64,000 bases of DNA from a virus (Duplodnaviria; Heunggongvirae; Uroviricota; Caudoviricetes). Position 1 is the first letter of the stretch, and each line of letters starts with the position of its first letter. The stretch lies in IMG/VR virus record IMGVR_UViG_3300021599_001517, positions 18,702 through 82,701 of that record; one strand, 5' to 3'. Under the pieces are notes generated by a model. The model made no database searches, was not told the origin of the DNA, and was given only the letters and a program-made list of their open reading frames with translations. Positions 5,272 to 54,620 of the stretch are shown here, piece by piece. A program made the position numbers and the translations under genes.

Positions 5272-5475
5272 ATAACATATGAACGATGATTTAACAAGAT
5301 TCTTAGTTGGTTTTCTTATAGTCGCGGCTGTGCTTTTTATTATACTACTATGATTTTTAATCTTTTAATTTTAGCATTTGCTGTATACTGTTTAGTAGTA
5401 TGGATCCATGCGTTAGTAACATACGATTGGACTAAATTTGAAGAGGATTCAAAAGACGACGATTTTTTGAAACCT

Positions 5476-5552
5476 TATGAATAAAGAATTGTTGTAATTC
5501 CTTCAAAGTGAAGGCATTCTGGACGCGGGTTCGACTCCCGCCAGGTCCACCA
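5476..5552 (+). ncRNA. ssrA: tmRNA acceptor piece of a permuted ssrA: T-arm plus 3' acceptor strand plus CCA, gGACGCGGGUUCGACUCCCGCCAGGUCC-A-CCA (5' boundary approximate)
   Basis: Positions 5521-5552 are almost identical to the E. coli tmRNA 3' end (GGACGCGGGUUCAACUCCCGCCAGCUCCACCA). The encoded CCA ends at 5552. Confidence 0.65.
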
Positions 5553-5673
5553 ATAGAGATGATTATGAACACTACACAAACTATAAAATTAGCAGGATTT
5601 TTTCTAGGAACGTATATTTTATACAGACTAGGATTAGAAGTTTGGTGTATAGTTTATGGACTACTTTATTGAT

Positions 5674-5892
5674 GGGCCTGACATGGTTTCGACAGGGTGA
5701 GATAATAGAGACGGCAACACGGTAGGCGATGACCGTAAATCAAGCAAATCTATAAATGCAAACGATAATGCATTTGACTTTACAGCAATGAGCTTCACCG
5801 GTAACACTGTTGCCAATGACAGCAAATTTGCTCTAGCAGCCTAAGAAACTGCAAGTCCGGGGTAGCTATACCTTGTAACCCAAAATAGTGAA
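5674..5892 (+). ncRNA. ssrA: tmRNA coding piece of a permuted ssrA: 5' acceptor strand GGGCCUG, a UGGUUUCGACAGGG D-analog, and a tag reading frame ending ...ANDSKFALAA-UAA (3' boundary approximate, at the terminator)
   Basis: GGGCCUGACAUGGUUUCGACAGGG matches the universal tmRNA 5' end GGGGCUGAUUCUGGAUUCGACGGG and pairs with the upstream CAGGUCC. It lies downstream of the CCA end, which makes the gene permuted. Confidence 0.65.
5758..5844 (+). other. tmRNA tag-peptide reading frame (ANDNAFDFTAMSFTGNTVANDSKFALAA-stop; the true resume codon is uncertain, minimal tag ANDSKFALAA from 5812)
   Basis: The GCA at 5758 lies 84 nt from the 5' end of the coding piece. The frame ends ...KFALAA-TAA (compare E. 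coli ANDENYALAA). Confidence 0.5.
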
Positions 5893-5916
5893 AAGCCCCC
5901 TTGGGGGCTTTTCTTT
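5891..5916. terminator. Bidirectional rho-independent terminator (GCCCCC-TT-GGGGGC plus T-run) between the tmRNA and the convergent lipoprotein gene
   Basis: Perfect 6-bp GC stem with a flanking A-run and T-run. Confidence 0.7.
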
Positions 5917-7537: not shown

Positions 7538-8071
7538 ATGAAAACAGTTGGTGATAAAATTGAAGCATTTGCCGTAACCGGCGTTAATCCTGGTAAAGAT
7601 GATTTCTTTACCATTACTGAAAAGTCATACGAAGGTAAGTGGAAAGTAATTGTTTACTATCCAAAAGACTTTACATTTGTATGCCCAACAGAAATCGTAG
7701 CATACGATAAATTGAATAGTGATTTTGCCGATCGTGACGCAGTATTACTAACTGGTTCAACAGATAACGAATTCTGTAAACTGGCATGGCAAGCAGCCCA
7801 TGAAGATCTTAAAAAAATCAAACATGTTCAGTTTGCTGATACACAGCGTAACGAATTGAGCCTTATTGATCAGCTTGGCGTATTCTATGCTCCAGCAGGT
7901 GCTGCACTTCGTGCAACATTCATTGTTGATCCAGAGAATGTTATCCAACACATTACTGTCAACAACTTGAATGTTGGTCGCTCACCAGAAGAAACACTTC
8001 GTGTATTAGACGCATTGCAAACAGGTGAACTTTGTGCTTGCAACCGTACAGTTGGCGGAGAGACACTGTAA
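7538..8071 (+). CDS. ahpC: Peroxiredoxin, AhpC/TSA family
   Basis: Contains FTFVCPTEI (peroxidatic Cys). Overall AhpC-like, with a C-terminal CAC. Confidence 0.85.
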   Translation: MKTVGDKIEAFAVTGVNPGKDDFFTITEKSYEGKWKVIVYYPKDFTFVCPTEIVAYDKLNSDFADRDAVLLTGSTDNEFCKLAWQAAHEDLKKIKHVQFADTQRNELSLIDQLGVFYAPAGAALRATFIVDPENVIQHITVNNLNVGRSPEETLRVLDALQTGELCACNRTVGGETL

Positions 8072-8586
8072 TGACTGCTTGGGTAGATCAAATTAAAGAA
8101 ACTATTCCGGACTATGCTAAAGACACTCGTCTTAACATTGATGCAGTAGTTAAGCGTTCTACTCTACCCCAAGAAGAAGCAGAAGCTGTTGCTATCGCAG
8201 CGGCTTTTGCCACAGGTAATAGTAAACTGTGGACTTGGATGCAGAGTCAGGCAATAGATAAGAAAGAAGCTGAAGCAGCAGTTACCGCAGCTAGTCTAAT
8301 GGCCATGAACAATGTATGGTACCCATTCGTTGAAATGGCTGAGGATCCTAATCTAACAGGATTACCGGCACAGTTGCGTATGAACGCAATTACTACACAT
8401 GGCGGCACTACTAAAGCAAGATTTGAAGCATATTCTTTATCTGCTAGTATTGTTGGCAAGTGTCATTTTTGTGTGAAAGCACATTATGAAACACTCAAGC
8501 AAGAAGGATATACAGTAGAACAATTACGTGATATTGGGCGCATAGCGGCAGTTATCACCAGTGTATCCAGAGTACTAAATAGTTAA
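8071..8586 (+). CDS. ahpD: Alkylhydroperoxidase AhpD-family protein (carboxymuconolactone decarboxylase fold)
   Basis: KCHFCVKAH matches the CxxCxxxH AhpD catalytic motif. The start is taken at the ATG in the TAATG overlap with the ahpC stop (the track ORF starts earlier, at 8032). Confidence 0.65.
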   Translation: MTAWVDQIKETIPDYAKDTRLNIDAVVKRSTLPQEEAEAVAIAAAFATGNSKLWTWMQSQAIDKKEAEAAVTAASLMAMNNVWYPFVEMAEDPNLTGLPAQLRMNAITTHGGTTKARFEAYSLSASIVGKCHFCVKAHYETLKQEGYTVEQLRDIGRIAAVITSVSRVLNS

Positions 8587-8626
8587 TCGCCGTAACAGAA
8601 CTGTAATCTTAGGTCTCTTAAATAAG

Positions 8627-8659
8627 AAGGTACAACATAGTGTTGTACCTTTCTTTTTA
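8627..8659 (+). terminator. Rho-independent terminator (AAGGTACAACA-TAG-TGTTGTACCTT plus T-run) after ahpD
   Basis: 11-bp perfect stem followed by TTCTTTTTATT. Confidence 0.65.
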
Positions 8660-8682
8660 TTCACTCACACAAGGAGATTACA

Positions 8683-9708
8683 GTGAAAAAAATCATACTG
8701 ACACTACTGGCGGCATTGACCGTTTCAGCACATGCAGCGGATCTAACAGGAGCAGGGGCAACATTTCCTTATCCTATCTATTCAAAATGGGCCGAAGCAT
8801 ATAAAGCAGCAACAGGCATCGGACTCAACTATCAATCAATTGGTTCAGGCGGCGGCATCCGTCAAATCAAAGCTAAGATTGTAGATTTTGGCGCCAGTGA
8901 CATGCCACTAAAACAAGACGAATTAGACAAAGACGGTCTAATGCAATTCCCTGCAATCATTGGCGGAGTTGTGCCGATTGTAAACATTGATGGTATTGGT
9001 GCAGGACAACTTAAACTTACCTCAGACATTATTGCTGACATCTATATGGGTAAGATCGTCAAGTGGGATCATCCCAGCATCACAGCAATCAATCCAGGAT
9101 TAAAATTACCTAATGCAAATATCTCTGTGGTTCACCGCAGTGATGGTTCAGGTACAACCTTTATATGGACTAACTGGTTAAGCAAGACTAATAAAGAATG
9201 GGCAGATAAAGTCAAAGACGGCACCGCAGTCAAATGGCCAATGGGTGTAGGTGGTAAGGGCAATGAAGGTGTAAGTGCTGTGGTCCAACAACTAAAAAAT
9301 AGTATTGGTTATGTAGAATATGCCTATGCTAAACGCAACAAGATTCCACACGCACAAGTCAAAAATCGTGATGGCAACTTTGTACAGCCTAGCGATGATA
9401 CATTCAAGGCAGCGGCAGCAGGTGCAGACTGGGCAAATGCTCCAGGGTTCTATCTATTGCTAACAGACCAAAAAGGCAAGGACGCTTGGCCTATTACAGG
9501 TGCCAGTTTCATTCTCATGCATAAGCAACAAGAGGATGCACTAACAGGTCGTGCAGTTCTTAAGTTCTTTGATTGGAGTTACAAGAACGGCGGGCAGATG
9601 GCTACAGATTTAGAATATGTACATCTTCCACAATCTGTTATTACATTAGTACAGAATCATTGGAAGACTCAGTTAAAAGATAAGGATAGCAACGCTATTT
9701 GGAAGTAA
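8683..9708 (+). CDS. pstS: Phosphate ABC transporter periplasmic phosphate-binding protein PstS (GTG start; RBS AAGGAG)
   Basis: Signal peptide, then a PstS-like sequence throughout (…GAGATFPYP…SDGSGTTFIWTNWL…). Confidence 0.9.
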   Translation: MKKIILTLLAALTVSAHAADLTGAGATFPYPIYSKWAEAYKAATGIGLNYQSIGSGGGIRQIKAKIVDFGASDMPLKQDELDKDGLMQFPAIIGGVVPIVNIDGIGAGQLKLTSDIIADIYMGKIVKWDHPSITAINPGLKLPNANISVVHRSDGSGTTFIWTNWLSKTNKEWADKVKDGTAVKWPMGVGGKGNEGVSAVVQQLKNSIGYVEYAYAKRNKIPHAQVKNRDGNFVQPSDDTFKAAAAGADWANAPGFYLLLTDQKGKDAWPITGASFILMHKQQEDALTGRAVLKFFDWSYKNGGQMATDLEYVHLPQSVITLVQNHWKTQLKDKDSNAIWK

Positions 9709-9718
9709 GCAGTACCCA

Positions 9719-9738
9719 CCGCCAGTGATCACTGGCGG
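9719..9738 (+). terminator. GC-rich perfect palindrome CCGCCAGTGATCACTGGCGG (hairpin; partial terminator/attenuator) between pstS and the porin gene
   Basis: 20-bp perfect palindrome followed by an AT-rich stretch. Confidence 0.45.
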
Positions 9739-9760
9739 ATCTATTTTATAAGGATTTAAA

Positions 9761-11173
9761 ATGAAAACATTACTTAAGGTAATGCTGGCGTCATCTGTGA
9801 CAGCATTTATACCTGCACCTGCACACGCAGACGAATACAAAGACACACTTGAAATTCTAAAAAATAAAAATATTCTTACACAGAAAGAATATGATATTAA
9901 ACTTAAAGAATATGAAGAAAAAGAAGAAAACAAAAAGTTTATTGAACAGAGAATTGACAGAGATGTCAGCGACTCAGTCAAATACAGACAGGCCAGAGTT
10001 AATGACGGATCAGTCACAGAAAACGGAATTGGACTCAAAAGCAAAGATGGCGGCAACACCGTCCAGCTTACAGGTCGACTACATATGGACTATCGTCAGT
10101 ACTCCCCGGATTACGGTACAGGTCAAACCACAGATTCGTACCAGAATACTGCTGAAGCACGACGAGCCAGATTTGGAGTAAGAGGTCAGTTTGCCAAAGA
10201 TTTCAAATATCAATTATTAGCAAACTTTGGTGCCAGTGATGGTTTTAGTTCAACATCGAGTACAGCAGATGAAATGTGGGTCAACTATGCTGCAAATCCA
10301 GAAGCACAGTTTCAATTTGGTTTATTCAAGATGCCATTCAGTCTTGAGCAGTTAACAAGTTCAAACAATCTTGACTTTATGGAACGCAGTTTAATTGGTC
10401 AAAATGATACAGAGTTTATACCTGCTAAAGAAACTGGATTTATGTTACATGGTATTCCTAAGCCTGGCTTAACATACGCTCTAGCATTAAGCAGAGGTAA
10501 GAGCAATAAGAGTGCCGAGTTTGATGGCTTTGACTACATTAGTCGTGTAACTACAAACATCGCTGAACTAACCGGAAGCAAAGCATATACAGCACATTTA
10601 GGTGCCGCTTATAGTACAGGTGAAATCAAAAGCGGTGTAGCTCCAGCAAGTGGTAGAACAGAATCACGTATGCAATCAGGATGGTTTACAGGATCTGCTC
10701 TTAGCGGTGCAACTACAAGAACACGTCAAGGCCTCGAAGCTGCATTTGCTTATAATGCATTTAAGGTGCAAGGCGAACATTTTCAATTTAATTATGATCC
10801 TGCAACAGGTAACGATCAGAAAATAAATGGATACTATGTGCAAGCTGTGTATAATCTAACAGGTGAGTCACACTCATATAAAGATGGCGCATTTGGTTGG
10901 ATCAAACCTGCTAATCCTTTGGACAAAGGTGGTCGTGGTGCATGGCAAGTTGGTGTACGTATGAGTGAGTTTGATGCCAGTGACATTACTGTAGCTACCG
11001 GCAAATCAAATCGTGCTACTGCTATGACATATGGTGTTACCTGGTTCTGCACAGACAACCTACGTTTTATGTTAAATTATGTAGACACAAAATTTGATAG
11101 TCTAGTAGGCAGTTCAGGTAGTCGTGTAAACGGCGAACGTGCTGTTATGTTTAGAAGCCAACTAAGTTTTTAA
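9761..11173 (+). CDS. Phosphate-selective porin O/P family outer-membrane protein
   Basis: 470 aa with a signal peptide (AHA-DE cleavage site), an N-terminal charged coiled segment, then an aromatic-rich beta-barrel-like sequence ending ...FRSQLSF, the C-terminal Phe typical of OMPs. The overall pattern matches OprO/OprP-type porins. Confidence 0.6.
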   Translation: MKTLLKVMLASSVTAFIPAPAHADEYKDTLEILKNKNILTQKEYDIKLKEYEEKEENKKFIEQRIDRDVSDSVKYRQARVNDGSVTENGIGLKSKDGGNTVQLTGRLHMDYRQYSPDYGTGQTTDSYQNTAEARRARFGVRGQFAKDFKYQLLANFGASDGFSSTSSTADEMWVNYAANPEAQFQFGLFKMPFSLEQLTSSNNLDFMERSLIGQNDTEFIPAKETGFMLHGIPKPGLTYALALSRGKSNKSAEFDGFDYISRVTTNIAELTGSKAYTAHLGAAYSTGEIKSGVAPASGRTESRMQSGWFTGSALSGATTRTRQGLEAAFAYNAFKVQGEHFQFNYDPATGNDQKINGYYVQAVYNLTGESHSYKDGAFGWIKPANPLDKGGRGAWQVGVRMSEFDASDITVATGKSNRATAMTYGVTWFCTDNLRFMLNYVDTKFDSLVGSSGSRVNGERAVMFRSQLSF

Positions 11174-11195
11174 TAAATAACTTGGCATTTATAAT

Positions 11196-11220
11196 GCCCC
11201 ATCTAATGGGGCTTTTTTTT
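11196..11220 (+). terminator. Rho-independent terminator GCCCCATCTAATGGGGC plus T8
   Basis: 5-bp GC stem plus TTTTTTTT. Confidence 0.7.
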
Positions 11221-11231
11221 GGACACACTAA

Positions 11232-11411
11232 ATGGAAACACACAAACGAACACTAACACGAGCAATTACATGGAGAATTACCGCAACTCTTATAACTGCG
11301 GCATGGACAGGATTGGCAGGAGCTATCGTTATTAATATTTTTATGACTGTTGCCCACTACATACATGAACGATTTTGGCTAAAAATTGAGTGGGGTAAAC
11401 AGATCAATTAG
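11232..11411 (+). CDS. Small membrane protein (DUF2061-like: RAITWRITATLITAAWTGLAGAIV)
   Basis: 59-aa ORF below the track cutoff, with 2 TM helices. Confidence 0.3.
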   Translation: METHKRTLTRAITWRITATLITAAWTGLAGAIVINIFMTVAHYIHERFWLKIEWGKQIN

Positions 11412-11519
11412 CCTATTTTAATGAATTTCACTATGGTTTTCTGGTAGTTTTTATCATATAATGCAGATACATACTGTTGCAATAGTATGTTTTTATTGTT
11501 GTTAAAAAGGAGAAGCATT

Positions 11520-11591
11520 ATGTGGACCAAGCCAGAAGCAACCGAGATGCGTTATGGTTTTGAGATCACTATGTACATCGCTAATCGCTAA
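11520..11591 (+). CDS. pqqA: PqqA-like peptide (23 aa: [23 protein letters not shown]), a putative RiPP precursor
   Basis: Near-identical in pattern to proteobacterial PqqA (MW.KPA..D.R.G.EVT.Y...R) with the E-x-x-x-Y cross-link pair. AAGGAG RBS 7 nt upstream. Its own terminator follows. Confidence 0.6.
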
Positions 11592-11607
11592 TACATAGTA
11601 TCAAAAA

Positions 11608-11632
11608 TCAAAACCCGCTCCGGCGGGTTTTT
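11608..11632 (+). terminator. Rho-independent terminator AACCCGC-TCCG-GCGGGTT plus T-run
   Basis: Read directly from the sequence. Confidence 0.7.
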
Positions 11633-11700
11633 TCTTGACTTTTATTGCAAATATGTTATACTATATGCTCAGTAACTAATTTTGGAGATATACTTTGAGT

Positions 11701-12066
11701 ATGCATTTGGAAGGTCCGTGGCTCAGTACCACAGGCAAGAAAAAAAGCAAACGTAAATTTCGTAATGCTGAAGAAGCACGTAAGTCTCGCGAGTTACAAG
11801 ATTCTTGGCAGTCGTTGTTAGAAAAGTATGATGTGCCAAAAACTAGTAAACAGAAAAAATTTGAACCATTAAAGGCCAAATCAGCACCTATAAGAGAGAC
11901 TCCAAAGATTCCTAGTCTTCCTTTTACTGCTGGACCTTGTACTAAACCAGAGCAGAAAGTTTATACTGGTACAAAAGTTAAAGGTATTGGCACTATGCAT
12001 AAAAGTAATGCTGTTCCAATTTTTTCAGACGAAGAAGCTGTAGAAATTGCCAAAATGAGGCGATAA
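11701..12066 (+). CDS. Hypothetical Lys/Arg-rich protein
   Basis: ORF from the first ATG (the track starts at TTG 11695). Confidence 0.4.
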   Translation: MHLEGPWLSTTGKKKSKRKFRNAEEARKSRELQDSWQSLLEKYDVPKTSKQKKFEPLKAKSAPIRETPKIPSLPFTAGPCTKPEQKVYTGTKVKGIGTMHKSNAVPIFSDEEAVEIAKMRR

Positions 12067-12366
12067 TACCACATTTTAGTACCAAAATGAGTGATATATG
12101 CTATATAAAAATACGTTTCGCAAAGAAACTAAGATAGTAGAACCAAAGTATGTCAAAAGCTGAAACGGTTCCGCGAGTCTTGGCCAATTGGAAACCCGTG
12201 AGATTCGGGCGGTCAAGGCTCCAAAGGCACACAAGTTATGAGATTGTGCGTCCAATGGAGACAACTACACGAACCCAGGGTTCTTCATTTAGAGCCTCGT
12301 GAAGTTTACTCCCTTAATGTAATGTAATATGAAGTTCGTATTACACCAAATGAAAGGAGATACAAA

Positions 12367-12906
12367 ATGGAAAAAGTAATAAAACCTATAATTTTGATTA
12401 TTGGGTTAGTACTAACAGTAATGTCTATTAAAGCTGTTACAGCCGTAAAACTAAATCAATTAAAACAGACAGCAGGAGTTTCTTATTCTGATGTTGTCAC
12501 AATTCGTGAACGTGAGCGTCAGTTAGATTGCTTGGCTAGAAATATCTATCACGAAGCGGCCAGCGAACCATTTGAGGGTAAAGTTGCGGTAGCACAGGTT
12601 ACAATGAACCGTGCATCCAGCGGCAAATTCCCAAATGATATTTGCGGTGTTATATACCAAAAGAATGTTTTCTATGAAAAAGTAGTTTGCCAATTTAGTT
12701 GGTACTGCGAAGGTCACGGTAAAAGCAAACCAATTCGTAGCAAAGAAATGTACGACGAATCATATCGTGTTGCTAAAAAAGTATTGTTAGAAAACTTTAG
12801 ACTTGACGTTATGAAAGAAGCCATGTATTATCATGCTGATTACGTGAACCCTCAATGGGGTAGAGAAAAGATTGGCAAAATTGGTCGTCATATATTTTAC
12901 AAATAA
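12367..12906 (+). CDS. Cell wall hydrolase, SleB/CwlJ (Hydrolase_2) family, with an N-terminal membrane anchor
   Basis: ...NIYHEAASEPFEGKVAVAQVTMNRA...QFSWYCEGH... is typical of SleB-family lytic enzymes. RBS AAAGGAG. Confidence 0.7.
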   Translation: MEKVIKPIILIIGLVLTVMSIKAVTAVKLNQLKQTAGVSYSDVVTIRERERQLDCLARNIYHEAASEPFEGKVAVAQVTMNRASSGKFPNDICGVIYQKNVFYEKVVCQFSWYCEGHGKSKPIRSKEMYDESYRVAKKVLLENFRLDVMKEAMYYHADYVNPQWGREKIGKIGRHIFYK

Positions 12907-12915
12907 GGATTAAGA

Positions 12916-13227
12916 ATGGAAAAGTTTGAGTTGTTGTTTAATAAATGCAGAGAATTTTTATCTACCAAATTAAGTCACATCAGTAGCGAAGCTTTGGGTT
13001 GGTTAGCTACTATTGTGATTCATGCATCAACCTTGCCAACGTTTCTTGCAGTTATGATGGGATTAACTGACAAGCTACCTGGCGTTGATATCATTCTAAT
13101 GGTTTGGGGTGGACTAACCTTGTTGTTCTTTAGAGCCGTGTTAATCAAAGACATGCTCAATGTAGCAACAATTGGATTTGGTTTTATTCTTCAAGCTGTA
13201 TTCATGTCACTGATTTTCTTTAAGTAA
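12916..13227 (+). CDS. Small integral membrane protein
   Basis: 3 predicted TM helices. Confidence 0.4.
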   Translation: MEKFELLFNKCREFLSTKLSHISSEALGWLATIVIHASTLPTFLAVMMGLTDKLPGVDIILMVWGGLTLLFFRAVLIKDMLNVATIGFGFILQAVFMSLIFFK

Positions 13228-13308
13228 TTTTGGTAATCACCGTAGTTGACTTTGGTCGACTGCGGTGTTATATTAGTAACTGTCTTAACACACACAGAAA
13301 GAGGCATT

Positions 13309-13785
13309 ATGAAAAAGGCAATTTTAGTAGGCTTAATGGCAGCGGCTATTACAGGCTGTTCGTCTATGAAAGATATTCCAGAACGTAAAACTTATGCTCA
13401 ACCTAGTTGGTATCAGGATTGCGCACAAGAAGGCATCAAAGGCTGGTTCTGGTGGAAAGAAGACTATGTCTATGCCTGCGGTGCAGGTGAATCAGCATAC
13501 GCACAGGCTGCTGAAGAGCAAATGGATGCAATTGCAATGAATAACTTTGCAAAACGCATTAATGGTACAGTAAACTCTGAAACTGTAATTGATATCAAAG
13601 ACGATAAGAAAACTACTCGTACACTGATTTCTTACAAAGTTACTGATACTGCTATTCGTCGTCACGTCAAGACCGAAAAAGGCCACTTTACGATGAATGG
13701 ACGCCACTACACTTATGTACGGCTTGAAATGAAAAAGTCTACATTTGAACAATTGATGAACGAAGCTAAACAGAAAGCACAATAA
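13309..13785 (+). CDS. Lipoprotein (MKKAILVGLMAAAITGCSS)
   Basis: Start taken at the ATG after an AGAGG RBS. The track ORF begins at 13246. Confidence 0.5.
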   Translation: MKKAILVGLMAAAITGCSSMKDIPERKTYAQPSWYQDCAQEGIKGWFWWKEDYVYACGAGESAYAQAAEEQMDAIAMNNFAKRINGTVNSETVIDIKDDKKTTRTLISYKVTDTAIRRHVKTEKGHFTMNGRHYTYVRLEMKKSTFEQLMNEAKQKAQ

Positions 13786-14099
13786 TGAAATTATTGATTA
13801 TTGCTGCTACCGCTGTAATTTTAGCGGGCTGTAGTTCTGCCCCTAAAATTGCAGCCGAAAAGCCGCAGTATTGTCACACTTATCAAACAATAAAATCTAA
13901 GAACGGTGATACTGTTAATAGTGAGACTACTGTCAAATGTACTGATGATCAGGTTGAACGTGTAACTTCAAAACGTCTAGGTATGGCGGACAATTGTGGT
14001 TATTTTACTAGTTATATGAAAGTTGGAGGCAAAGATGTTCCGTATCGTGCGATTAGTTGTTTTGACGGTCGTAATTGGGAAATCATTAATGTTCAGTAA
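13785..14099 (+). CDS. Lipoprotein (LAGC lipobox)
   Basis: ATGA overlap with the upstream gene. Confidence 0.5.
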   Translation: MKLLIIAATAVILAGCSSAPKIAAEKPQYCHTYQTIKSKNGDTVNSETTVKCTDDQVERVTSKRLGMADNCGYFTSYMKVGGKDVPYRAISCFDGRNWEIINVQ

Positions 14100-16767: not shown

Positions 16768-17159
16768 TGAATAAAATTACTTTGGTTACTGAGCCAGATG
16801 ATATACTGGTAGATGCTTTTAGAATATTGTGCGTAAATCTAACCGTAGATCAAACACAGTTTCTTTCTGACATCGTAAATGATATGGAATATATAGTTGA
16901 CACTGTTGTATATGTTTGGAACGATGGAGATGACGAAAAATGGTTATTTGATAAAAAGACAAAAAGTAATCTAATTGTCTTTAATGCAAGTACAGAATGT
17001 GGAGAGATAAATGGATATCTAGCTGCACAACCAAATTCGTTTTATTTTGGTCCTCTCAGAAATTTATCTCTCGTAAATATTAGAGATATATATGATGCAA
17101 CAGATTTTAAAGATACTTTATTAGAATATATCAGGAAATATGAACAAATTTACGAATAA
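16767..17159 (+). CDS. Hypothetical protein
   Basis: ORF only. Confidence 0.4.
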   Translation: MNKITLVTEPDDILVDAFRILCVNLTVDQTQFLSDIVNDMEYIVDTVVYVWNDGDDEKWLFDKKTKSNLIVFNASTECGEINGYLAAQPNSFYFGPLRNLSLVNIRDIYDATDFKDTLLEYIRKYEQIYE

Positions 17160-17379
17160 ACCTTCTGGTAGTGTAGTTACAGTTAAAGATGGCGAAGATA
17201 TTAATCGTGCTCTTAGACGTTTTAAGAAAAAAATAGAAGAATCCGGCACACTTGACACCCTCCGTAAAAAAGAATTTTACGAAAAACCTACTACAGAACG
17301 TAAGCGTAAAAAATCAGCGGCTAAGGCACGTTGGCGCAAACAATTACGTTCACAAGAATTACCACCTAAACTCTATTGA
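17140..17379 (+). CDS. rpsU: Ribosomal protein S21 (bS21)
   Basis: ...INRALRRFKKKIEESGTLDTLRKKEFYEKPTTERKRKKSAAKAR... is nearly a match to bacterial S21 (...ALRRFKR...REFYEKPTTERKR...). Confidence 0.85.
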   Translation: MNKFTNKPSGSVVTVKDGEDINRALRRFKKKIEESGTLDTLRKKEFYEKPTTERKRKKSAAKARWRKQLRSQELPPKLY

Positions 17380-17410: not shown

Positions 17411-17992
17411 ATGAACTCAGATATAATGATAGACCTCGAAACCCTTGCCACCACTCCTGATGCTGCAATTTTAAGTATTGGCGCAGTGAAATTTGATCCG
17501 TTTGGGCAAGAATTAAAAGAACCAGCAATGGAAAGTTTTTATCTACGTGTAGATATTGACAGTTGTGATCGGTTAGGATTAGCTACATCACAAGATACTC
17601 TTGAATGGTGGGCAAAACAAAGTCAAGCAGCTCAAGACGAAGCATTTGGAACCGAAGGTAGAGTTGATATTGTTAGTGCTATGAATCAACTTTATAAATT
17701 CTGTTGGGGTGCTAAACGTGTATGGAGTCACGGTGCTGGCTTTGACGTTGTTATTTTAGAAACAGTATTTCGCAAAATGGGAAAAGGTTACCCTTGGAGT
17801 TTCTGGCAAGTAAGAGATACTAGAACAATTTTTGATCTTGGTATCAATCCAGACCGCCCTGAAGTATTAGCTCACCATGCGTTACACGATTCTTATAATC
17901 AAGCAATTGGTGTGCAAAATGTTTTCCGTAGATTGCGAACATCGTCGACATTAGACGGCCAATTGCTTTCTCCATTAAAGGATTCAAGATGA
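17411..17992 (+). CDS. DEDD-family 3'-5' exonuclease (RNase T / Rv2179c-like)
   Basis: IMIDLETL...[10 protein letters not shown]...HHALHDSYN correspond to exo motifs I-III (DEDDh). Confidence 0.6.
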
Positions 17993-19068
17993 GAATCGAA
18001 GATGAAATCAAATTAGATTTCAAAGATGTTCTTATTCGTCCTAAGCGCAGTACTTTATCAAGTCGCAAAGAAGTTGACTTAACAAGGACTTACAAATTTA
18101 AACACAGTCGCGCCGAGTGGACAGGAGTTCCGATTATGGCCAGTAACATGGACGGTGTTGGTACACTAGAAATGGCTCATGCTCTATATCAACACAAAAT
18201 GTTCACTTGCCTAGTTAAGAATATCAGTACGGTATACTTTGAAACAACCGTACAAGATATAGGAGGCAATCATTTCGCAGTAAGCACAGGGACTTCCGAA
18301 AAGGACTTTGAAAGATTAAGTAACATACTTAATTCTTATTCCGAAATAAAATTTATCTGTATAGATGTAGCAAATGGATATAGCGAACACTTCGGGGACT
18401 ATGTAGAAGAAGTGCGTGAGGCATTTCCTAATCACACAATTATCGCAGGTAACGTTGTTACCGCAGACATGACACAGGAGTTAATTTTACGTGGAGCAGA
18501 TATTATCAAAGTGGGCATTGGTCCAGGCAGTGTTTGTACAACTAGGATACAAACTGGCGTCGGTTATCCTCAGCTCAGTGCTATTATTGAGTGTGCTGAC
18601 GCTGCTCATGGTCTCGGCGGCCATATTATTGCTGATGGTGGTTGTGTGTGTCCCGGTGACATTGCTAAGGCGTTTGGCGCCGGAGCAGACTTTGTAATGT
18701 TAGGAGGCATGTTAGCCGGTCATGATGAGGGCGGCGGTGAAGTTATTGAAGAAATGCACGAACTTTCAAAACTTCAAAAAGATATGTTTTCAAATGATTA
18801 TGAAATTAAAAAATATGTAGAATTCTATGGAATGAGTTCAAATACTGCTATGAACAAGCATCATGGTGGCATAGCTGAATATCGTTCATCAGAAGGACGT
18901 ACGGTAAGAGTACCGTATAAGGGCCCGGTCCAAAGTACAATTTTGGATATGTTGGGCGGACTGCGTAGTTCTTGCACATATGTAGGTGCTGCAAGTCTTA
19001 AACAATTATCTAAATGTACTACATTTATTAGGGTCAATATGCAATTTAATGATGTCTTTACGAGATAA
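17989..19068 (+). CDS. guaC: GMP reductase
   Basis: Collinear with E. coli GuaC ([24 protein letters not shown]...F..., ...[21 protein letters not shown]...), plus one short insertion. Confidence 0.9.
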
Positions 19069-19076
19069 ATAAAAAC

Positions 19077-19102
19077 GCAATTAGCACCCAATGGGCTAAT
19101 TG
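19077..19102 (+). promoter_or_regulatory. Hairpin GCAATTAGC-ACCCAATGG-GCTAATTG upstream of dnaK. Its loop motif is shared with the hsp20 and porin hairpins.
   Basis: 8-bp stem. The loop contains CCAATGGG. Confidence 0.35.
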
Positions 19103-19149
19103 TAACGAGCTCAGTGCTCATTAAATTCTTACTTTTTAAGGAGAAAAAT

Positions 19150-21063
19150 ATGTCAAAAATCATCGGTATCGATTTGGGTACCACAAACTCATGTGTAGCT
19201 GTTATTGAAAACGGCAAATCCAAAGTAATTGAAAACTCAGAAGGCGCAAGAACAACTCCGAGTATTGTTGCTTATACAGACAGCGATATTTTAGTAGGTG
19301 CTTCAGCAAAGCGTCAGGCGGTAACTAATCCCAAAAACACAATTTATGCATCTAAGCGGTTAATTGGACGTAAGTTCAATGAACAGGCTGTTCAGAAGGA
19401 CATTGACCTAATGCCTTATGAAATTGTCAAGGCAACAAATGGTGATGCTTGGATTCGCGCACAAGGAAAAGAAATGGCACCTCCACAGGTGTCTGCAGAA
19501 GTTCTTCGCAAGATGAAAAAGACTGCAGAGGACTATTTAGGGCATGAAGTTACACAGGCTGTTATTACAGTGCCTGCTTACTTCAATGATAGTCAAAGAC
19601 AGGCAACTAAAGATGCCGGTCAAATCGCTGGCTTAGAAGTTCTACGTATTATTAACGAACCTACTGCGGCTGCATTAAGCTACGGTGTTGACAAGACAGA
19701 CAAAGCTGATCGTAAGATTGCGGTGTATGACTTAGGTGGTGGCACATTTGATATCAGTATCATTGAGATTGCCAACGTCGAAGGCGACAAACAAATTGAA
19801 GTATTGTCAACAAACGGCGATACATTCTTAGGCGGTGAAGACTTTGACCAGCGCATTATGGATTATCTGGTTGAGGAATTTAAGAAAGAGCAAGGCATTG
19901 ATCTAACTAAAGATATGTTGGCACTACAACGTCTTAAGGACTCTGCTGAAAAAGCTAAGATTGAATTATCTAATTCTACACAAACTGAAGTTAATCTTCC
20001 ATACATTACTGCCGATGCTAGTGGTCCTAAACATCTAGTGGTAAAAATTACCAAGGCAAAATTGGAACAGTTAGTTGACGATTTAATTCAACGTTCATTA
20101 GAACCTTGTCGTATTGCTATGAAAGATGCCGGAGTTACCGCAGATCAGATCGACGAAGTTATTCTAGTTGGCGGCCAAACTCGCATGCCAAAGGTACAAG
20201 AAGAAGTAGAACGTTTATTTGGAAAAGCGCCACGTAAAGATGTTAACCCAGACGAAGCAGTAGCAGTTGGTGCTGCTATCCAAGGTGCTGTGTTGGGTGG
20301 TGATCGTAAAGATGTCCTATTGTTAGATGTTACTCCATTAACTTTGGGTATTGAAACAGTAGGCGGTGTAATGGCCAAACTGGTTGCTAAGAATACTACT
20401 ATTCCAACTAAGGCAAATCAAATTTTCAGTACAGCTGATGACAATCAACCTGCTGTTACTATTCGTGTGTTCCAAGGAGAACGCGAATTGGCACATCATA
20501 ACAAATTGTTAGGCGAATTTAATCTTGAAGGTATTGATCCAGCACCACGTGGTATGCCTCAAATTGAAGTTACATTTGATATTGATGCTAATGGTATTTT
20601 AAGCGTAAGTGCCAAAGACAAAAATACTGGTAAAGAAAATAAAATTACCATTAAAGCTAATAGCGGCATTACTGAAGATGAAATCAAACGTATGATCGCT
20701 GAAGCAGAACAATATGCAGAAGAAGATAAAAAAGCACGTGAAGTTATTGAAACACGTAATGGTGCATTATCTGAACTGTATACAATTCGCAGAGAATTAG
20801 AAGCAGAAAAAGATCTTGCTACAGAAGAAGAATGGAAAATAATTGAAGATGCACTAGAGGCTGCTGAAAAATTAGTCAATGATAATAGTGACATTGAAGA
20901 AATTAAGAAAGGTCCTTTCAATGTAGCCGATGCTGCAAAACCTTTGTTTGAAAAAATTAAAGCCAAACGCGAAGCTGCCAAAGCAGAACAATCTGCACCG
21001 CAGCCAACTGATGGTGAAGTGATCGATGCTTCCTTTACAGCAACTGAAGGCAAGGCATCTTAA
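19150..21063 (+). CDS. dnaK: Molecular chaperone DnaK (Hsp70), full length
   Basis: [22 protein letters not shown] and the complete NBD plus SBD. Start taken at the ATG after the AAGGAG RBS (the track starts at 19114). Confidence 0.95.
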
Positions 21064-21084
21064 GAATACACATATGTGTGTATA

Positions 21085-21113
21085 ATGTTGCGGTACCTAA
21101 TGGGCCGCAACAT
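21085..21113 (+). promoter_or_regulatory. Hairpin ATGTTGCGG-TACCTAATGGG-CCGCAACAT in the hsp20 upstream/5'-UTR region, immediately after a TATAAT (21080-21085)
   Basis: 9-bp stem. The loop contains CTAATGGG. Confidence 0.35.
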
Positions 21114-21154
21114 TGAGCATAAAGCTCATATTCTTACTTTAAAAGGAGATTAAT

Positions 21155-21592
21155 ATGAATAATAATCAGTTAGCACAAATTACAGCTCTTAACAGAGCTC
21201 TTATTGGATTTGACACACTGTTTGATCAAATGGAAAGACGTTTTTCTAATAGTGTATCTAATAACTATCCACCTCACAACATTCTTAAAACTGGTGAAAA
21301 TCAGTATGAGATTCAATTAGCAGTTACTGGATTTGATAAAACAGAAATTTCTGTTACTGTAGAGGACGGAATTCTTATTGTTAAAGGTGAAAGCATGGCT
21401 ACAGATCATGCGCCAGAACAATACATTCATCGCGGTCTTGCTACTCGCGATTTTGTTAAAGAATTTCCTCTAGCAGAACATATTGAAGTTACTGGAGCGG
21501 AAACCAAAAATGGTATGTTAACCATTAAGTTGGTCCGTAATGTTCCAGAGTCTGCGAAACCGAAAGTCATTGACATTGTAGACATTAAGTAA
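21155..21592 (+). CDS. ibpA: Small heat-shock protein (Hsp20/alpha-crystallin, IbpA-like)
   Basis: ...YPPHNILKTGENQYEIQLAVTGF...ISVTVEDGILIVKGE... matches the IbpA/B pattern. Confidence 0.85.
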   Translation: MNNNQLAQITALNRALIGFDTLFDQMERRFSNSVSNNYPPHNILKTGENQYEIQLAVTGFDKTEISVTVEDGILIVKGESMATDHAPEQYIHRGLATRDFVKEFPLAEHIEVTGAETKNGMLTIKLVRNVPESAKPKVIDIVDIK

Positions 21593-22218: not shown

Positions 22219-22785
22219 ATGAGTTTAAAAGAAATTACCAAAGATCTTCATCACGAAGCAGAAACAACCCAATTTGCTAAGATGTTACTTAGCGGAAAAA
22301 TTACTAAAGAAGATTATGCCAACTACCTTTATCAGTTAGTATTAATTTATAATGCTATAGAGTTAGGTAATCGAGTAGAAGGCAATTTTAAAAATCTTCC
22401 TGGTTTAGAAAGAACACACGCAATCTATCAAGACTTTATTGAGATCGCAGGTGTTGATCACAATTACAAATGGTTACCTGGAACTATAGACTATTACAAC
22501 TATCTCTTAAATTTAGTTCGTGATCCTGCGCATCGTCCTAAAATCAAAGCTCATCTATATTGTCGACATATGGGAGATCTGTATGGTGGTCAAATAATTA
22601 AAAAACAAGTAGCACATATTAGCAAAGGTCGTTTTTATGATTTTAAAGATGCAGATGCATTAAAAATGTCCATACGTGCAGAACTAACTGATGACCTAGG
22701 AGACGAAGCAAGAGTTGCGTTTGAATGGGCCATTAAAATGATGAGAGAATTGTATAATGAGTCAGGTCTGGAACAGTCTAATTGA
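22219..22785 (+). CDS. ho1: Heme oxygenase (HO-1 family)
   Basis: N-terminal L..HH.AE and HLYCRHMGDLYGGQ (compare HAYTRYLGDLSGGQ). Confidence 0.85.
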   Translation: MSLKEITKDLHHEAETTQFAKMLLSGKITKEDYANYLYQLVLIYNAIELGNRVEGNFKNLPGLERTHAIYQDFIEIAGVDHNYKWLPGTIDYYNYLLNLVRDPAHRPKIKAHLYCRHMGDLYGGQIIKKQVAHISKGRFYDFKDADALKMSIRAELTDDLGDEARVAFEWAIKMMRELYNESGLEQSN

Positions 22786-23437
22786 AATACAAAAACTGTT
22801 AGAAAAAAGATTTTCAGAGACAGGCATTGAAACTTTTGAGCCCGGAATGGAAAGATTTAATCAACCGGGTTGGGTAAATAGAGTTTGGTGCAGCGATCAT
22901 TATCGCAGAGCTCATGTCGACGTAGTTGACGCCCGATCCTCAAAGGGCCTTTGGATGATGCATTGCTGCATCTTTCCTCACATACACAATCCTGCTCCTA
23001 TTTTTGGATTTGATGTAATTGCAGGAAAAAATAAAATCACAGGTTGTTTTATAGACTACAGCCCAACAGCTGATAAACAGCATCCTATGATCGAATATTT
23101 TGCTGAAGAAGTCAGTAGATACGAATGGATCCGCAAACGTGAACTACCTGAATGGGCGCAACGTATATTCAGTTCACACATGGTGGCCGCTGGCAATGTG
23201 CAAGAAGAATCAGAATTATCTCAAATTAGCGGTCTAGCGAACATTCTAGTAAATCATTATTTAGAAACAGTAGGCGAAACAAATCACAAAGTTGCAGATA
23301 CAACGTTTGAGCAAAATTATTACGCACAGAATCAAAAACAAAATCCGCACACCCCTAGAGTTATGGTTAGTTTGGGGCTTAGTGAAGAAGATGTTAAGCA
23401 TTTTATTCAAGATTGTTTATTTCCAGAAATAAACTAA
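22757..23437 (+). CDS. Ferredoxin-dependent bilin reductase (PebS/PcyA/PcyX family)
   Basis: ...YRRAHVDVVD...WMMHCCIFP...PIFGFDVIAG...GCFIDYSP... is the Fe_bilin_red pattern. It is adjacent to heme oxygenase. Confidence 0.75.
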   Translation: MSQVWNSLIEIQKLLEKRFSETGIETFEPGMERFNQPGWVNRVWCSDHYRRAHVDVVDARSSKGLWMMHCCIFPHIHNPAPIFGFDVIAGKNKITGCFIDYSPTADKQHPMIEYFAEEVSRYEWIRKRELPEWAQRIFSSHMVAAGNVQEESELSQISGLANILVNHYLETVGETNHKVADTTFEQNYYAQNQKQNPHTPRVMVSLGLSEEDVKHFIQDCLFPEIN

Positions 23438-28859: not shown

Positions 28860-29669
28860 ATGAAAATTAGATTAGTATCAGATCTCCATTTAGAATTTTC
28901 AGATTGCTTCGATATTAAGAATGATGATAATATCGATGTCTTAATTCTTGGCGGTGACATTATGATCGCCAGTAAAGTTCTAAAACCTCAAAGTGAATAC
29001 GGTATTCGTTTTCGTGACTTTCTAAAACGAATGAGCTTTCAGTTTCCTCATGTTATCTACATAATGGGCAATCATGAATTTTATAGTGATGGTCATTGGG
29101 TAGGTAGTGTTGAACAAATGCGCATGGCTTGCGGTGTACATGATAATATCTACATGTTGGAGAGAGATACTAAAATTATCGACGATGTAGTTTTTGTTGG
29201 TGGAACATTATGGACAGACATGAATAAGTACGATCCATTAACTATGCATGCCGTCCGAGACATGATGAACGATTATCGTGCTATTCGTAATGATCAGGCT
29301 GGATATCGAAATCTTAAACCTGCCGACACTGCCGAACGTCATCGTCAAACAGTAGATTATATTAAACATGTTGTTAAAGAACACAAAGATAAACAGTGCG
29401 TAGTAGTTGGACATCATTCTCCAAGTTGGTTAAGTGTGCATGAACAATATAAGAATGATTACATAATGAACGGTGCATATCACAGTGATCTCTCTAATAT
29501 CATGTTAGATAATCCTAATATTAAATTGTGGACGCATGGCCATACACATCATTGCTTTGACTATATGATTGGAGAAACTAGGATAGTTTGTAATCCTAGA
29601 GGTTATCATCAGGCAAGTGGGTGGAGTGAAGACACTAACTGGAACCCTTCATTATGTATAGAAATTTAA
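28860..29669 (+). CDS. Calcineurin-like metallophosphoesterase
   Basis: Contains VSDLHLEF, GGDIM, GNHEFY, GHHSP and GHTHH metal-binding motifs. Confidence 0.75.
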   Translation: MKIRLVSDLHLEFSDCFDIKNDDNIDVLILGGDIMIASKVLKPQSEYGIRFRDFLKRMSFQFPHVIYIMGNHEFYSDGHWVGSVEQMRMACGVHDNIYMLERDTKIIDDVVFVGGTLWTDMNKYDPLTMHAVRDMMNDYRAIRNDQAGYRNLKPADTAERHRQTVDYIKHVVKEHKDKQCVVVGHHSPSWLSVHEQYKNDYIMNGAYHSDLSNIMLDNPNIKLWTHGHTHHCFDYMIGETRIVCNPRGYHQASGWSEDTNWNPSLCIEI

Positions 29670-43710: not shown

Positions 43711-43733
43711 CTAGTTATTTAAGTGAGATATCT

Positions 43734-44420: not shown

Positions 44421-44773
44421 TGTCTTGGGGTTATCATATTATGTTAGATTGTGCCGGTTGTGATTTAAAAAAAATTAAAGATAAAGATCACATATGGGCA
44501 TTTGTATATACATTAATAAAACGTGTTGAAATGGAAGCGCACGGAAAAATGATCATTGAAAATTTATTACCAGGAACAGACAATGAAGGATATAGTGTAT
44601 TACAAATGATTACTACAAGTAATATAAATTGTCATTTTGTAAACAAGACTGCTGATGCTTATATTGATTTGTTTAGCTGTAAAGAATTTAAAGCAGAAAT
44701 AGTTATTGCTACTGTTAAAGAATTTTTTAATCCAACCAGCATCAAATTAAACTTTGTAGAAAGACAGGCTTAG
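44420..44773 (+). CDS. S-adenosylmethionine decarboxylase-like protein (SpeH / class 1b AdoMetDC fold)
   Basis: Aligns with B. subtilis SpeH (GRHVISELWGCD / GYHIMLDCAGCD; ...ESHLTIH.FPE.GYA..DV.TCG / ...TSNINCHF......AYIDLFSCK), but has Thr-Ser where the self-cleaving Glu-Ser lies. Confidence 0.5.
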   Translation: MSWGYHIMLDCAGCDLKKIKDKDHIWAFVYTLIKRVEMEAHGKMIIENLLPGTDNEGYSVLQMITTSNINCHFVNKTADAYIDLFSCKEFKAEIVIATVKEFFNPTSIKLNFVERQA

Positions 44774-47074: not shown

Positions 47075-47082
47075 GAAAAATA

Positions 47083-54603: not shown

Positions 54604-54620
54604 AAGTCTATAAATACCGC

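What the first reader, a model, noticed from the sequence alone, without database searches (positions are those of the whole stretch)
11520..11591. Orphan PqqA-like peptide gene with its own RBS and terminator
A 23-codon ORF ([23 protein letters not shown]) sits 7 nt downstream of an AAGGAG RBS. A clean rho-independent terminator (11608-11632) follows it. Its pattern is almost superimposable on proteobacterial PqqA ([23 protein letters not shown]), including the Glu-x-x-x-Tyr pair that PqqE cross-links. No pqqB/C/D/E are visible in this window. The radical SAM proteins here lack a PqqE-like SPASM Cys cluster. The peptide would therefore have to be processed by host PqqE/D, or by the unusual rSAM island, or serve another role such as a decoy for host PqqD/E.
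Basis: partly seen in the sequence, partly recalled or inferred. Interest (0 to 1): 0.75.

Follow-up and report, generated by a model that had tools for sequence, protein, structure and literature searches.

The report
Phage copy of PQQ precursor gene
A 72-base gene in a large phage encodes a genuine copy of PqqA, the peptide that bacteria convert into the cofactor PQQ. It is a self-contained cassette found in many phages of methanol-oxidising bacteria, probably keeps the host's cofactor supply going during infection, and belongs to a kind of viral gene already reported from Lake Baikal.

Summary
Window 11520-11591 (+) encodes [23 protein letters not shown], preceded by AAGGAG with a 7-nt spacer and followed by a strong terminator hairpin. 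It scores above the curated cutoffs of both PqqA models (Pfam 35 vs 21.1 bits; TIGR02107 38.2 vs 20). No pqqB, C, D or E is in the window. None of the six radical SAM proteins checked has a SPASM motif.

The gene is not an oddity of this phage. Intact orphan pqqA ORFs occur, unannotated, in six distinct cultured Methylophilaceae phages and one uncultured freshwater phage, and in more than 120 IMG/VR contigs. A search using only the conserved non-coding 5' hairpin found 50 further large-phage contigs with an intact PqqA ORF just downstream. The peptide type matches Methylophilaceae, which carry 3-12 mostly orphan pqqA copies but one pqqBCDE set.

Best reading: a "moron" cassette supplying the consumable PQQ precursor to host PqqB-E, sustaining PQQ-dependent methanol dehydrogenase during infection. 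This step is inferred, not shown.

Viral PqqA in predicted Methylophilaceae phages was published in 2020 (PMC7678222). This is therefore a new member of a known kind. What is new is its breadth, its missing annotation and the conserved cassette.

The parts
11416..11440 (+). Conserved upstream box TTTTAATGAATTTCACTATGGTTTT. It is a putative promoter-proximal element covering the -35 region or an activator site. There is no canonical -35 hexamer.
   Evidence: It aligns across window, L099, L011 and L031, although their flanks differ. It is unique in the 64-kb window, with 0 matches expected by chance. It was absent upstream of pqqA in the 120 bacterial pqqA loci. Its function is inferred.
11457..11462 (+). 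TATAAT, a -10-like hexamer placed 3 nt upstream of the invariant GATACATACT.
   Evidence: Read from the sequence. A TATAAT, TATACT or TACTAT hexamer sits at the same position in L099, L011 and L031. The consensus promoter scan did not report it because no -35 hexamer matches. Inferred.
11466..11490 (+). Invariant GATACATACT plus the hairpin ACATACT-GTTGCAAT-AGTATGT, predicted to sit at or near the 5' end of the transcript.
   Evidence: It folds at -8 kcal/mol, z = -2.95, and is unique in the window. The two stem halves are constant while the loop varies in length and sequence among relatives. That argues for a hairpin rather than a fixed-spacing protein-binding site. An IMG/VR scan with this motif alone gave 118 hits (capped); 53 have a PqqA ORF 21-33 nt downstream, 50 of them on contigs not fetched before.
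11507..11512 (+). Shine-Dalgarno sequence AAGGAG, 7 nt before the ATG.
   Evidence: An SD-like motif is present in 120 of 126 viral pqqA copies found by the coding pattern and in 54 of 54 copies of the hairpin lineage, window included.
11520..11591 (+). pqqA: 23 codons plus stop, [23 protein letters not shown]. Glu15 and Tyr19 are the residues cross-linked in PQQ biogenesis.
   Evidence: Among the four divergent relatives, variable columns fall 5/4/16 by codon position. In the hairpin-ascertained set (37 distinct coding sequences) pS is 0.63 and pN 0.14; T3, A7, R11 and F14 are invariant although the detection filter did not require them.
11610..11633 (+). Rho-independent terminator: a 9-bp stem, loop TCCG and a T-run.
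   Evidence: L099, L011 and L031 each carry a hairpin of different sequence followed by a T-run at the same place, so the structure is kept rather than the sequence.

Best explanation
The locus 11416-11633 is a self-contained 'moron' cassette in a large, probably jumbo, phage. It comprises a dedicated promoter region, a 5' hairpin, an RBS, a 23-codon pqqA and a terminator. The phage most likely infects a member of the Methylophilaceae, which are betaproteobacterial methylotrophs. The cassette produces authentic PqqA precursor peptide. The phage carries none of the processing genes, so the peptide is handed to the host's PqqD/PqqE (Glu15-Tyr19 cross-link) and then to the host's peptidase, PqqB and PqqC to give PQQ. 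One peptide is consumed per PQQ molecule, whereas the enzymes are reused. The precursor is therefore the component that runs out once host transcription declines. By resupplying it the phage keeps PQQ-dependent methanol dehydrogenase (XoxF/MxaF) working, and with it host energy supply, during infection. Shown here: family membership, conserved coding and expression signals, orphan status, and restriction to phages of methylotrophs. Inferred: host identity, expression, processing by host enzymes and the benefit to the phage.
For: (1) The peptide exceeds both curated PqqA cutoffs. (2) A tblastn search of 50,697 phage records at E<=10 hit 12 records. Nine are cultured Methylophilales or Methylophilaceae phages: Melnitz x4, Venkman, MEP301, MEP401, MEP402 and P19250A, spanning Kyanoviridae, Zobellviridae and unclassified Caudoviricetes. 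One is an uncultured freshwater phage. Two are 'Acinetobacter phage' records that are really a bacterial pqqABCDE operon. All the phage copies examined are intact ORFs with an RBS. HTVC008M, a SAR11 phage of the same family as Melnitz, is in the collection but was not hit. (3) A coding-pattern scan of IMG/VR gave 120 contigs (capped), every one an intact 23-26 codon ORF, falling into 18 flank-sequence clusters. (4) A scan with the non-coding hairpin alone found 53 hits with an intact PqqA ORF downstream, 50 on contigs not fetched before, on contigs up to 365 kb. pS is 0.63 and pN 0.14, and E15 and Y19 are always kept. (5) No PqqB/C/D/E homolog appears in any viral locus examined or in the window, whereas the same queries find 50-60% identical proteins in host loci. 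(6) The same coding pattern in 185,579 species genomes returned almost only Methylophilaceae. Only 18 of 120 loci lie next to pqqB-E. The literature reports 3-12 pqqA copies against a single pqqBCDEFG set in this family (PMC4109929), and differential, sometimes high, expression of orphan copies in a PQQ-producing strain (PMC9851590). (7) The window carries a betaproteobacterial-type two-piece tmRNA (RF01850, 135.9 bits against a gathering score of 84). (8) The same auxiliary-gene reading was proposed for PqqA in T4-like Baikal phages predicted to infect Methylophilaceae (PMC7678222).
Against: There are no expression or peptide data. The host is inferred, not demonstrated, and the Melnitz case shows that a phage tmRNA need not match the host lineage (PMC9004378). 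The window variant (Y12, I16, I20, A21) was not seen among the bacterial copies sampled, nor in the 15-billion protein collection, so its acceptance by host PqqD/E is assumed. No canonical -35 hexamer precedes the -10. Only 64 kb of a probably much larger genome was seen, so pqqB-E or a methanol dehydrogenase could lie elsewhere. The pN/pS values are partly biased because the filters required W, P, G, E and Y.
Confidence: 0.7

Rival explanations
1. Phosphate-acquisition gene. The PQQ made from the peptide would serve a PQQ-dependent glucose dehydrogenase that acidifies the surroundings and solubilises mineral phosphate, acting together with the neighbouring phosphate-binding protein and phosphate porin.
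For: pqqA lies about 350 bp downstream of a PstS-like binding protein (8683-9708) and a phosphate-selective porin (9761-11173). A 2026 survey files viral pqqA, D and E under inorganic phosphate solubilisation (PMC13188868).
Against: The adjacency is not conserved. In L099 the cassette follows the CMD-family gene directly, with no pstS or porin between. L011 has other neighbours. The six small cultured methylophages have no phosphate genes annotated next to pqqA. The peptide type is specific to Methylophilaceae, whose known PQQ-dependent enzymes include the methanol dehydrogenases.
Confidence: 0.08
2. The phage's own radical SAM enzymes, rather than host PqqE, act on the peptide. They would either make PQQ independently of the host or convert the peptide into a different modified product.
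For: The window has seven radical SAM ORFs. In relative L099 a 501-aa homolog of the window's paired radical SAM genes sits immediately downstream of pqqA on the same strand. Some B12-type radical SAM enzymes do methylate ribosomal peptides, and weak hits to such families were seen at 35-38 bits.
Against: None of the six checked has a SPASM motif. The best PqqE score is 35 bits against a cutoff of 381 and covers only the radical SAM core. No PqqD-like protein was found in the window. A terminator separates pqqA from the radical SAM gene in L099, and the adjacency is absent in the window (29 kb away, on the opposite strand) and in L011. The small methylophages carry pqqA with no radical SAM gene annotated in the flanks examined.
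Confidence: 0.06
3. Decoy or inhibitor. The peptide would occupy host PqqD/PqqE unproductively and lower PQQ synthesis.
For: The window variant differs from the host consensus at four positions. Nothing measured here excludes tight but unproductive binding.
Against: Glu15 and Tyr19 and the whole recognition core are strictly kept in every phage copy, including copies ascertained without reference to the coding sequence. Many phage copies are identical in sequence to the commonest host peptide. No benefit to the phage from shutting down host energy metabolism is apparent.
Confidence: 0.04
4. Non-functional passenger: a piece of host DNA picked up by chance, or the remnant of an integration site within a host pqqA gene.
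For: The gene is tiny and host-derived. In several small siphoviruses it lies in the recombination module and on the strand opposite to its neighbours.
Against: There are 112 distinct viral nucleotide versions with synonymous divergence near 0.5, all keeping start, frame and stop. RBS, 5' hairpin and terminator are conserved, and the terminator is kept as a structure with changed sequence. No integrase is annotated next to it in the cultured phages. It is present in the T4-like Melnitz, whose authors found no integrase or other evidence of integration. The upstream region is phage-specific, not host-like.
Confidence: 0.04

Closest known systems
Bacterial PqqA (TIGR02107 / PF08042), in particular the multi-copy orphan pqqA genes of Methylophilaceae
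   Same: Same length (23 aa). Same W-T-x-P...R-x-G-F-E-[VI]-T-M-Y core with Glu15 and Tyr19. Scores above the curated cutoffs. A stand-alone gene away from pqqBCDE, as for most host copies.
   Different: It is carried by a phage. The upstream regulatory region (box plus 5' hairpin) is phage-specific and absent from the bacterial loci sampled. The exact peptide variant was not seen in the bacteria sampled.
Viral PqqA reported in T4-like Lake Baikal phages (VP_266 / VP_139) predicted to infect Methylophilaceae (Coutinho et al. 2020, PMC7678222)
   Same: An orphan PqqA precursor gene in a large phage of about 35% GC. The Baikal populations also carry ribonucleotide reductase and radical SAM genes. 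The proposed role is the same: boosting PQQ for methanol oxidation.
   Different: No methanol dehydrogenase gene is seen in this window or in the fetched relatives (Pfam scans; weak negative probe). I could not compare sequences with the Baikal contigs. The cassette anatomy and the distribution across cultured methylophages are not described in the passages of that paper read here.
Cyanophage psbA (own knowledge, used as a functional analogy only)
   Same: The phage carries only the fast-turnover, consumable component of a host energy-generating system and relies on the host for everything else.
   Different: psbA encodes a full-size reaction-centre protein and is not a ribosomal peptide precursor. 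There is no sequence relationship.
Phage 'morons' (own knowledge: independent transcription units with their own promoter and terminator inserted between phage genes)
   Same: A roughly 220-bp unit with its own promoter-like region and terminator, found between different neighbouring genes in window, L099 and L011.
   Different: Classic morons were described in temperate lambdoid phages. This one lies in large phage genomes for which no integrase was looked for or seen.

Membership tests
PqqA precursor peptide (TIGR02107 / PF08042) | Sequence match to the curated family models above their cutoffs | tested here: met
   PF08042 35 bits against 21.1; TIGR02107 38.2 bits against 20.
PqqA precursor peptide (TIGR02107 / PF08042) | Short ribosomal peptide (about 20-30 aa) with a conserved Glu-x-x-x-Tyr pair near the C-terminus | tested here: met
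   23 aa with Glu15 and Tyr19. Both residues are kept in every phage relative.
PqqA precursor peptide (TIGR02107 / PF08042) | Genomic association with pqqBCDE | tested here: not met
   No pqqB-E in the window or in any viral locus examined. This feature is not strictly defining: 102 of 120 Methylophilaceae pqqA loci are also orphan, and the family has 3-12 pqqA copies for one pqqBCDEFG set (PMC4109929).
PqqA precursor peptide (TIGR02107 / PF08042) | Bound by PqqD, cross-linked by PqqE and converted to PQQ | not testable with these tools
   This needs in vitro assays or infected-cell metabolomics.
Auxiliary metabolic gene of a phage (host-derived, expressed during infection, sustains host metabolism) | Located in a bona fide viral genome | tested here: inconclusive
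   The window has no capsid, terminase or tail gene. Support comes from a ClpP-like prohead protease hit, an endolysin-like hit, a metallophosphoesterase whose closest matches are jumbo phages, relatives filed in IMG/VR on contigs up to 365 kb, and the same gene in cultured phage isolates.
Auxiliary metabolic gene of a phage (host-derived, expressed during infection, sustains host metabolism) | Under purifying selection and conserved across related phages | tested here: met
   pS 0.63 against pN 0.14 in the hairpin-ascertained set. Intact ORFs in all copies found by the coding pattern (126 measured) and in all 54 hairpin-lineage loci.
Auxiliary metabolic gene of a phage (host-derived, expressed during infection, sustains host metabolism) | Expressed during infection, with a measurable effect on host metabolism | not testable with these tools
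   Only predicted signals are available: a -10 hexamer, a 5' hairpin, an RBS and a terminator.
PqqE (radical SAM/SPASM) among the window's radical SAM proteins | Radical SAM core plus a C-terminal SPASM cysteine cluster, scoring above the TIGR02109 cutoff | tested here: not met
   The best TIGR02109 score is 35 bits against a cutoff of 381. No CX2CX5CX3C motif in any of the six proteins checked.

The most novel reading that the evidence does not exclude
The divergent PqqA variants of this jumbo-phage lineage (Y12, I16, I20, A21; others carry D9) might not simply feed the host pathway. They could be substrates of the phage's own B12-type radical SAM enzymes, one of which lies directly downstream of pqqA in relative L099. 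The product would be a modified quinone cofactor or a new peptide-derived molecule made during infection.
Probability: 0.05. Interest if true: 0.8.

Novelty: new member of a known kind. Interest (0 to 1): 0.4.

Why it matters
At 72 bases this is among the smallest candidate auxiliary metabolic genes. Gene callers miss it routinely. It is not annotated as pqqA in the cultured Methylophilaceae phage genomes examined (in Melnitz an opposite-strand ORF is annotated instead). The exact window peptide is also absent from a 15-billion protein collection.

Its recurrence in phages with unrelated genome backgrounds argues that supply of the precursor peptide limits PQQ, and hence methanol oxidation, in natural methylotrophs. 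That idea can be tested directly in the OM43 and LD28 phage-host systems already in culture.

In the collections searched, the gene marks phages of Methylophilaceae almost exclusively, so it may help assign uncultured phages, including jumbo phages, to methylotroph hosts.

The basic idea was already published in 2020, so the surprise for a specialist is moderate.

Tried and rejected
- Megablast of window 9000-14000 against the phage collection found no match.
- tblastn with the ribonucleotide reductase and DnaK proteins was uninformative about phage lineage. Hits were spread over thousands of phages or fell on mislabelled bacterial records.
- The 'Acinetobacter phage MD-2021a' hits are a bacterial pqqABCDE operon. 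I used them only as a positive control and as the source of PqqB-E queries.
- The upstream box as a general phage promoter: rejected, because it occurs once in 64 kb.
- The upstream region as a co-captured host pqqA promoter: rejected, because it is absent from the 120 bacterial loci.
- The 5' hairpin as a terminator or attenuator: rejected, because the following T-run is not conserved in L099 or L031.
- Rfam found no known RNA family in the cassette.
- A tblastn probe for methanol dehydrogenase found nothing in the window or any locus.
- About 65 of the 118 hairpin-motif hits have no PqqA ORF. My rough estimate is that roughly that many matches are expected by chance.
- The pN/pS from the coding-pattern set is biased by the pattern itself, so I relied on the hairpin-ascertained set.

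Full report
**1. Observation**

The ORF is exactly as described. Window 11520-11591 (+) reads [23 protein letters not shown] followed by a stop. AAGGAG lies at 11507-11512, 7 nt before the ATG.

Downstream, AAAACCCGC-TCCG-GCGGGTTTT (11610-11631) runs into a T-tract ending at 11633. It folds at -15.3 kcal/mol, and none of 200 shuffles folds as well.

The resemblance to PqqA is statistically sound. Pfam PF08042 gives 35 bits against a gathering score of 21.1. NCBIfam TIGR02107, an equivalog model, gives 38.2 bits against a cutoff of 20. Glu15 and Tyr19 occupy the positions of the pair that PqqE cross-links.

**2. Orphan status**

tblastn with a genuine PqqB-E set found only generic radical SAM core hits in the window, the best at E 9e-6. 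Profile HMMs for PqqB, C, D and E, built from 11-17 Methylophilaceae homologs each plus Acinetobacter, found nothing in the six-frame ORFs apart from a 19-bit hit to the same core.

The window has seven radical SAM ORFs. Six were checked for cysteine motifs; all carry CxxxCxxC and none has the SPASM CX2CX5CX3C cluster. NCBIfam places five of them with B12-type (class B) radical SAM methyltransferase-like families. One (44770-45849) best matches TrsS/Tes-like and SPASM-type families, and another (52651-53394) a tungsten-cofactor maturase. All scores are far below the curated cutoffs. The best PqqE score is 35 bits against a cutoff of 381. The window contains only one PqqA-like ORF.

**3. Genomic setting**

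The window has 29-40% GC. Genes identified include:
- ribonucleotide reductase (78-2877)
- a two-piece betaproteobacterial-type tmRNA (5454-5914; RF01850, 135.9 bits against 84)
- AhpC, a CMD-family protein, a PstS-like phosphate-binding protein and a phosphate-selective porin (7538-11173)
- a cell-wall hydrolase, a GMP reductase/IMPDH-family protein, DnaK and Hsp20
- heme oxygenase plus a bilin reductase
- a ClpP-like prohead protease
- a minus-strand island rich in radical SAM genes

There is no capsid, terminase or tail gene in these 64 kb.

The metallophosphoesterase at 28860-29669 finds its closest matches mostly in jumbo phages of 240-350 kb. The same population occurs on 22 metagenomic contigs, at least one in the 0.2-1 Mb size class. 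I therefore treat the source as a large, probably jumbo, phage, but this is not proven within the window. In none of the five contigs shown did the gene caller call the pqqA ORF.

**4. Conservation in other phages**

A tblastn search with the peptide against 50,697 phage records at E<=10 hit only 12 records. Nine are cultured Methylophilales or Methylophilaceae phages: Melnitz x4, Venkman, MEP301, MEP401, MEP402 and P19250A. One is an uncultured freshwater phage. Two are 'Acinetobacter phage' records that are really a bacterial pqqABCDE operon, which served as a positive control.

Every phage copy examined is an intact 23-24 codon ORF with an SD-like motif. None is annotated as pqqA, and in Melnitz an opposite-strand hypothetical ORF is annotated there instead. 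Pelagibacter phage HTVC008M belongs to the same family as Melnitz and is in the collection, but it was not hit.

A degenerate coding pattern scanned against IMG/VR reached the 120-contig limit. Every match is an intact ORF of 23-26 codons. By flank similarity the 127 loci fall into 18 clusters. No PqqB-E homolog lies in any of these viral loci.

**5. The cassette**

The window's own lineage (L099, a 96-kb contig; L011; L031, a 356-kb contig) shares much more than the ORF. A conserved box (window 11416-11440), a -10-like hexamer (11457-11462), the invariant GATACATACT and a hairpin (11466-11490) precede the RBS. A terminator follows whose sequence differs between relatives while its structure is kept.

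The neighbours differ. In L099 the cassette follows the CMD-family gene directly, with no pstS or porin between, and is followed by a B12-type radical SAM gene. In L011 it is followed by an unknown gene and a sugar dehydratase-like gene. It therefore behaves as a mobile, independently transcribed unit, a 'moron'.

The box and the hairpin each occur once in the window. Both were absent upstream of pqqA in the 120 bacterial loci, and the hairpin was absent from all other loci held at that point. Variable loop length between constant stem halves favours an RNA hairpin near the 5' end of the message. This would plausibly stabilise the mRNA, but that is inference.

**6. A test independent of the coding sequence**

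Scanning IMG/VR with the hairpin motif alone returned 118 hits (capped). Of these, 53 have an intact PqqA ORF 21-33 nt downstream, and 50 are on contigs not fetched before. With the window, that makes 54 loci, each with an SD-like motif, on contigs up to 365 kb. The remaining hits are about the number I roughly estimate from chance.

Among 37 distinct coding sequences pS is 0.63 and pN 0.14. Variable columns fall 11/7/21 by codon position. W2, T3, P5, A7, R11, G13, F14, E15 and Y19 are invariant. T3, A7, R11 and F14 were not required by the detection filter. No PqqB-E homolog occurs in the 1.07 Mb of these loci.

**7. Host**

The same coding pattern in one genome per bacterial species returned 120 loci (capped). 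Almost all are from Methylophilaceae: Methylotenera, Methylophilus, Methylobacillus, Methylovorus and Ca. Methylopumilus.

Only 18 of the 120 lie beside pqqB-E. This agrees with the report that this family has 3-12 pqqA copies but a single pqqBCDEFG set (PMC4109929). It also agrees with differential expression of orphan copies in a PQQ-producing strain (PMC9851590).

The commonest phage peptides are identical to the commonest host peptide, which NCBI names PqqA in Ca. Methylopumilus universalis. The window's own variant is specific to its phage lineage and is absent from the 15-billion protein collection. Together with the beta-type tmRNA, a Methylophilaceae host is the best inference. It is not proven.

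**8. Mechanism**

The phage supplies only the stoichiometrically consumed substrate of PQQ biogenesis and relies on the reusable host enzymes. This mirrors the host's own habit of multiplying pqqA rather than pqqB-E.

The likely benefit is continued activity of PQQ-dependent methanol dehydrogenase during infection. This is the reading Coutinho et al. proposed for PqqA in T4-like Baikal phages of predicted Methylophilaceae hosts (PMC7678222).

Four rivals are each less likely, for the reasons given in their entries:
- a phosphate-solubilisation role, suggested by the pstS and porin neighbours and by PMC13188868
- processing by the phage's own radical SAM enzymes
- a decoy of host PqqD/E
- a non-functional passenger or integration-site remnant

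**9. Novelty**

Viral PqqA is published, so the kind is known. Three points were not found in the literature searched:
- the gene is present but not annotated as pqqA in the cultured methylophage genomes examined
- it recurs in at least 18 sequence contexts, always without pqqB-E
- in a lineage of large phages it sits in a conserved promoter-hairpin-RBS-ORF-terminator cassette

I rate it a new member of a known kind, of moderate interest.

Noticed in passing
window 5454-5914 (+): A two-piece (permuted) tmRNA gene of the betaproteobacterial type: RF01850 135.9 bits, RF04321 152.6 bits. ARAGORN predicts an unusually long tag peptide. The methylophage Melnitz also carries a two-piece tmRNA, but of alphaproteobacterial type.
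   Followed up: partly
window 7538-11411 (+): A run of host-like genes just upstream of pqqA: AhpC peroxiredoxin, a CMD-family protein, a PstS-like phosphate-binding protein, a 470-aa phosphate-selective porin (O/P family) and a small DUF2061-like membrane protein. I do not recall a phosphate porin being reported in a phage. In relative L131 pstS and the porin sit behind different upstream genes, and L099 lacks them at this position.
   Followed up: partly
window 40551-58920 (mostly - strand): An island with seven radical SAM ORFs: five are B12-type methyltransferase-like, one has an HMPTM-type zinc ribbon, and one is a short 247-aa protein. It also holds a SAM decarboxylase (44420-44773), a class-III aminotransferase, a SAM-dependent methyltransferase and a 2OG-Fe(II) oxygenase. 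It looks like a biosynthetic or modification cluster of unknown product. GC drops to 29-32% here.
   Followed up: partly
window 22219-23437 (+): Heme oxygenase followed by a ferredoxin-dependent bilin reductase, a pigment-synthesis pair known from cyanophages and some marine phages. Here it sits in a phage inferred to infect a non-photosynthetic methylotroph.
   Followed up: no
window 17989-21592 (+), and about 17140-17379 by correspondence with L128: A GMP reductase/IMPDH-family protein, a full-length DnaK (649 aa) and Hsp20. The near-identical contig L128 also has a called ribosomal protein S21 gene at the position corresponding to window 17140-17379.
   Followed up: no
L099 2914-4419 (+): In this 96-kb relative, a 501-aa B12-type radical SAM gene lies immediately after the pqqA terminator on the same strand. 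It is homologous to the window's paired genes at 40551-43710. The adjacency is not conserved in the window or in L011.
   Followed up: partly
L001 (Melnitz MZ577097.1 76134-76208) and L002-L006: GenBank annotation gaps. In Melnitz an opposite-strand 'hypothetical protein' (gene 152) covers the pqqA ORF. In MW202481 an opposite-strand hypothetical also overlaps it. In MEP402, Venkman, MEP301 and P19250A the locus is unannotated.
   Followed up: yes
L007 (CAKLQF020000010.1) and CAKLQH020000055.1: Records named 'Acinetobacter phage MD-2021a' contain ordinary bacterial chromosome: fur, ppk, pqqABCDE, and dnaK on a sister contig. They contaminate phage-collection searches.
   Followed up: partly
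window 11635-11662 (+): A strong sigma-70-like promoter (TTGACT, 16-nt spacer with TG, TATACT) lies directly after the pqqA terminator. It presumably drives the next gene (11695-12066), so the terminator really does separate two transcription units.
   Followed up: no
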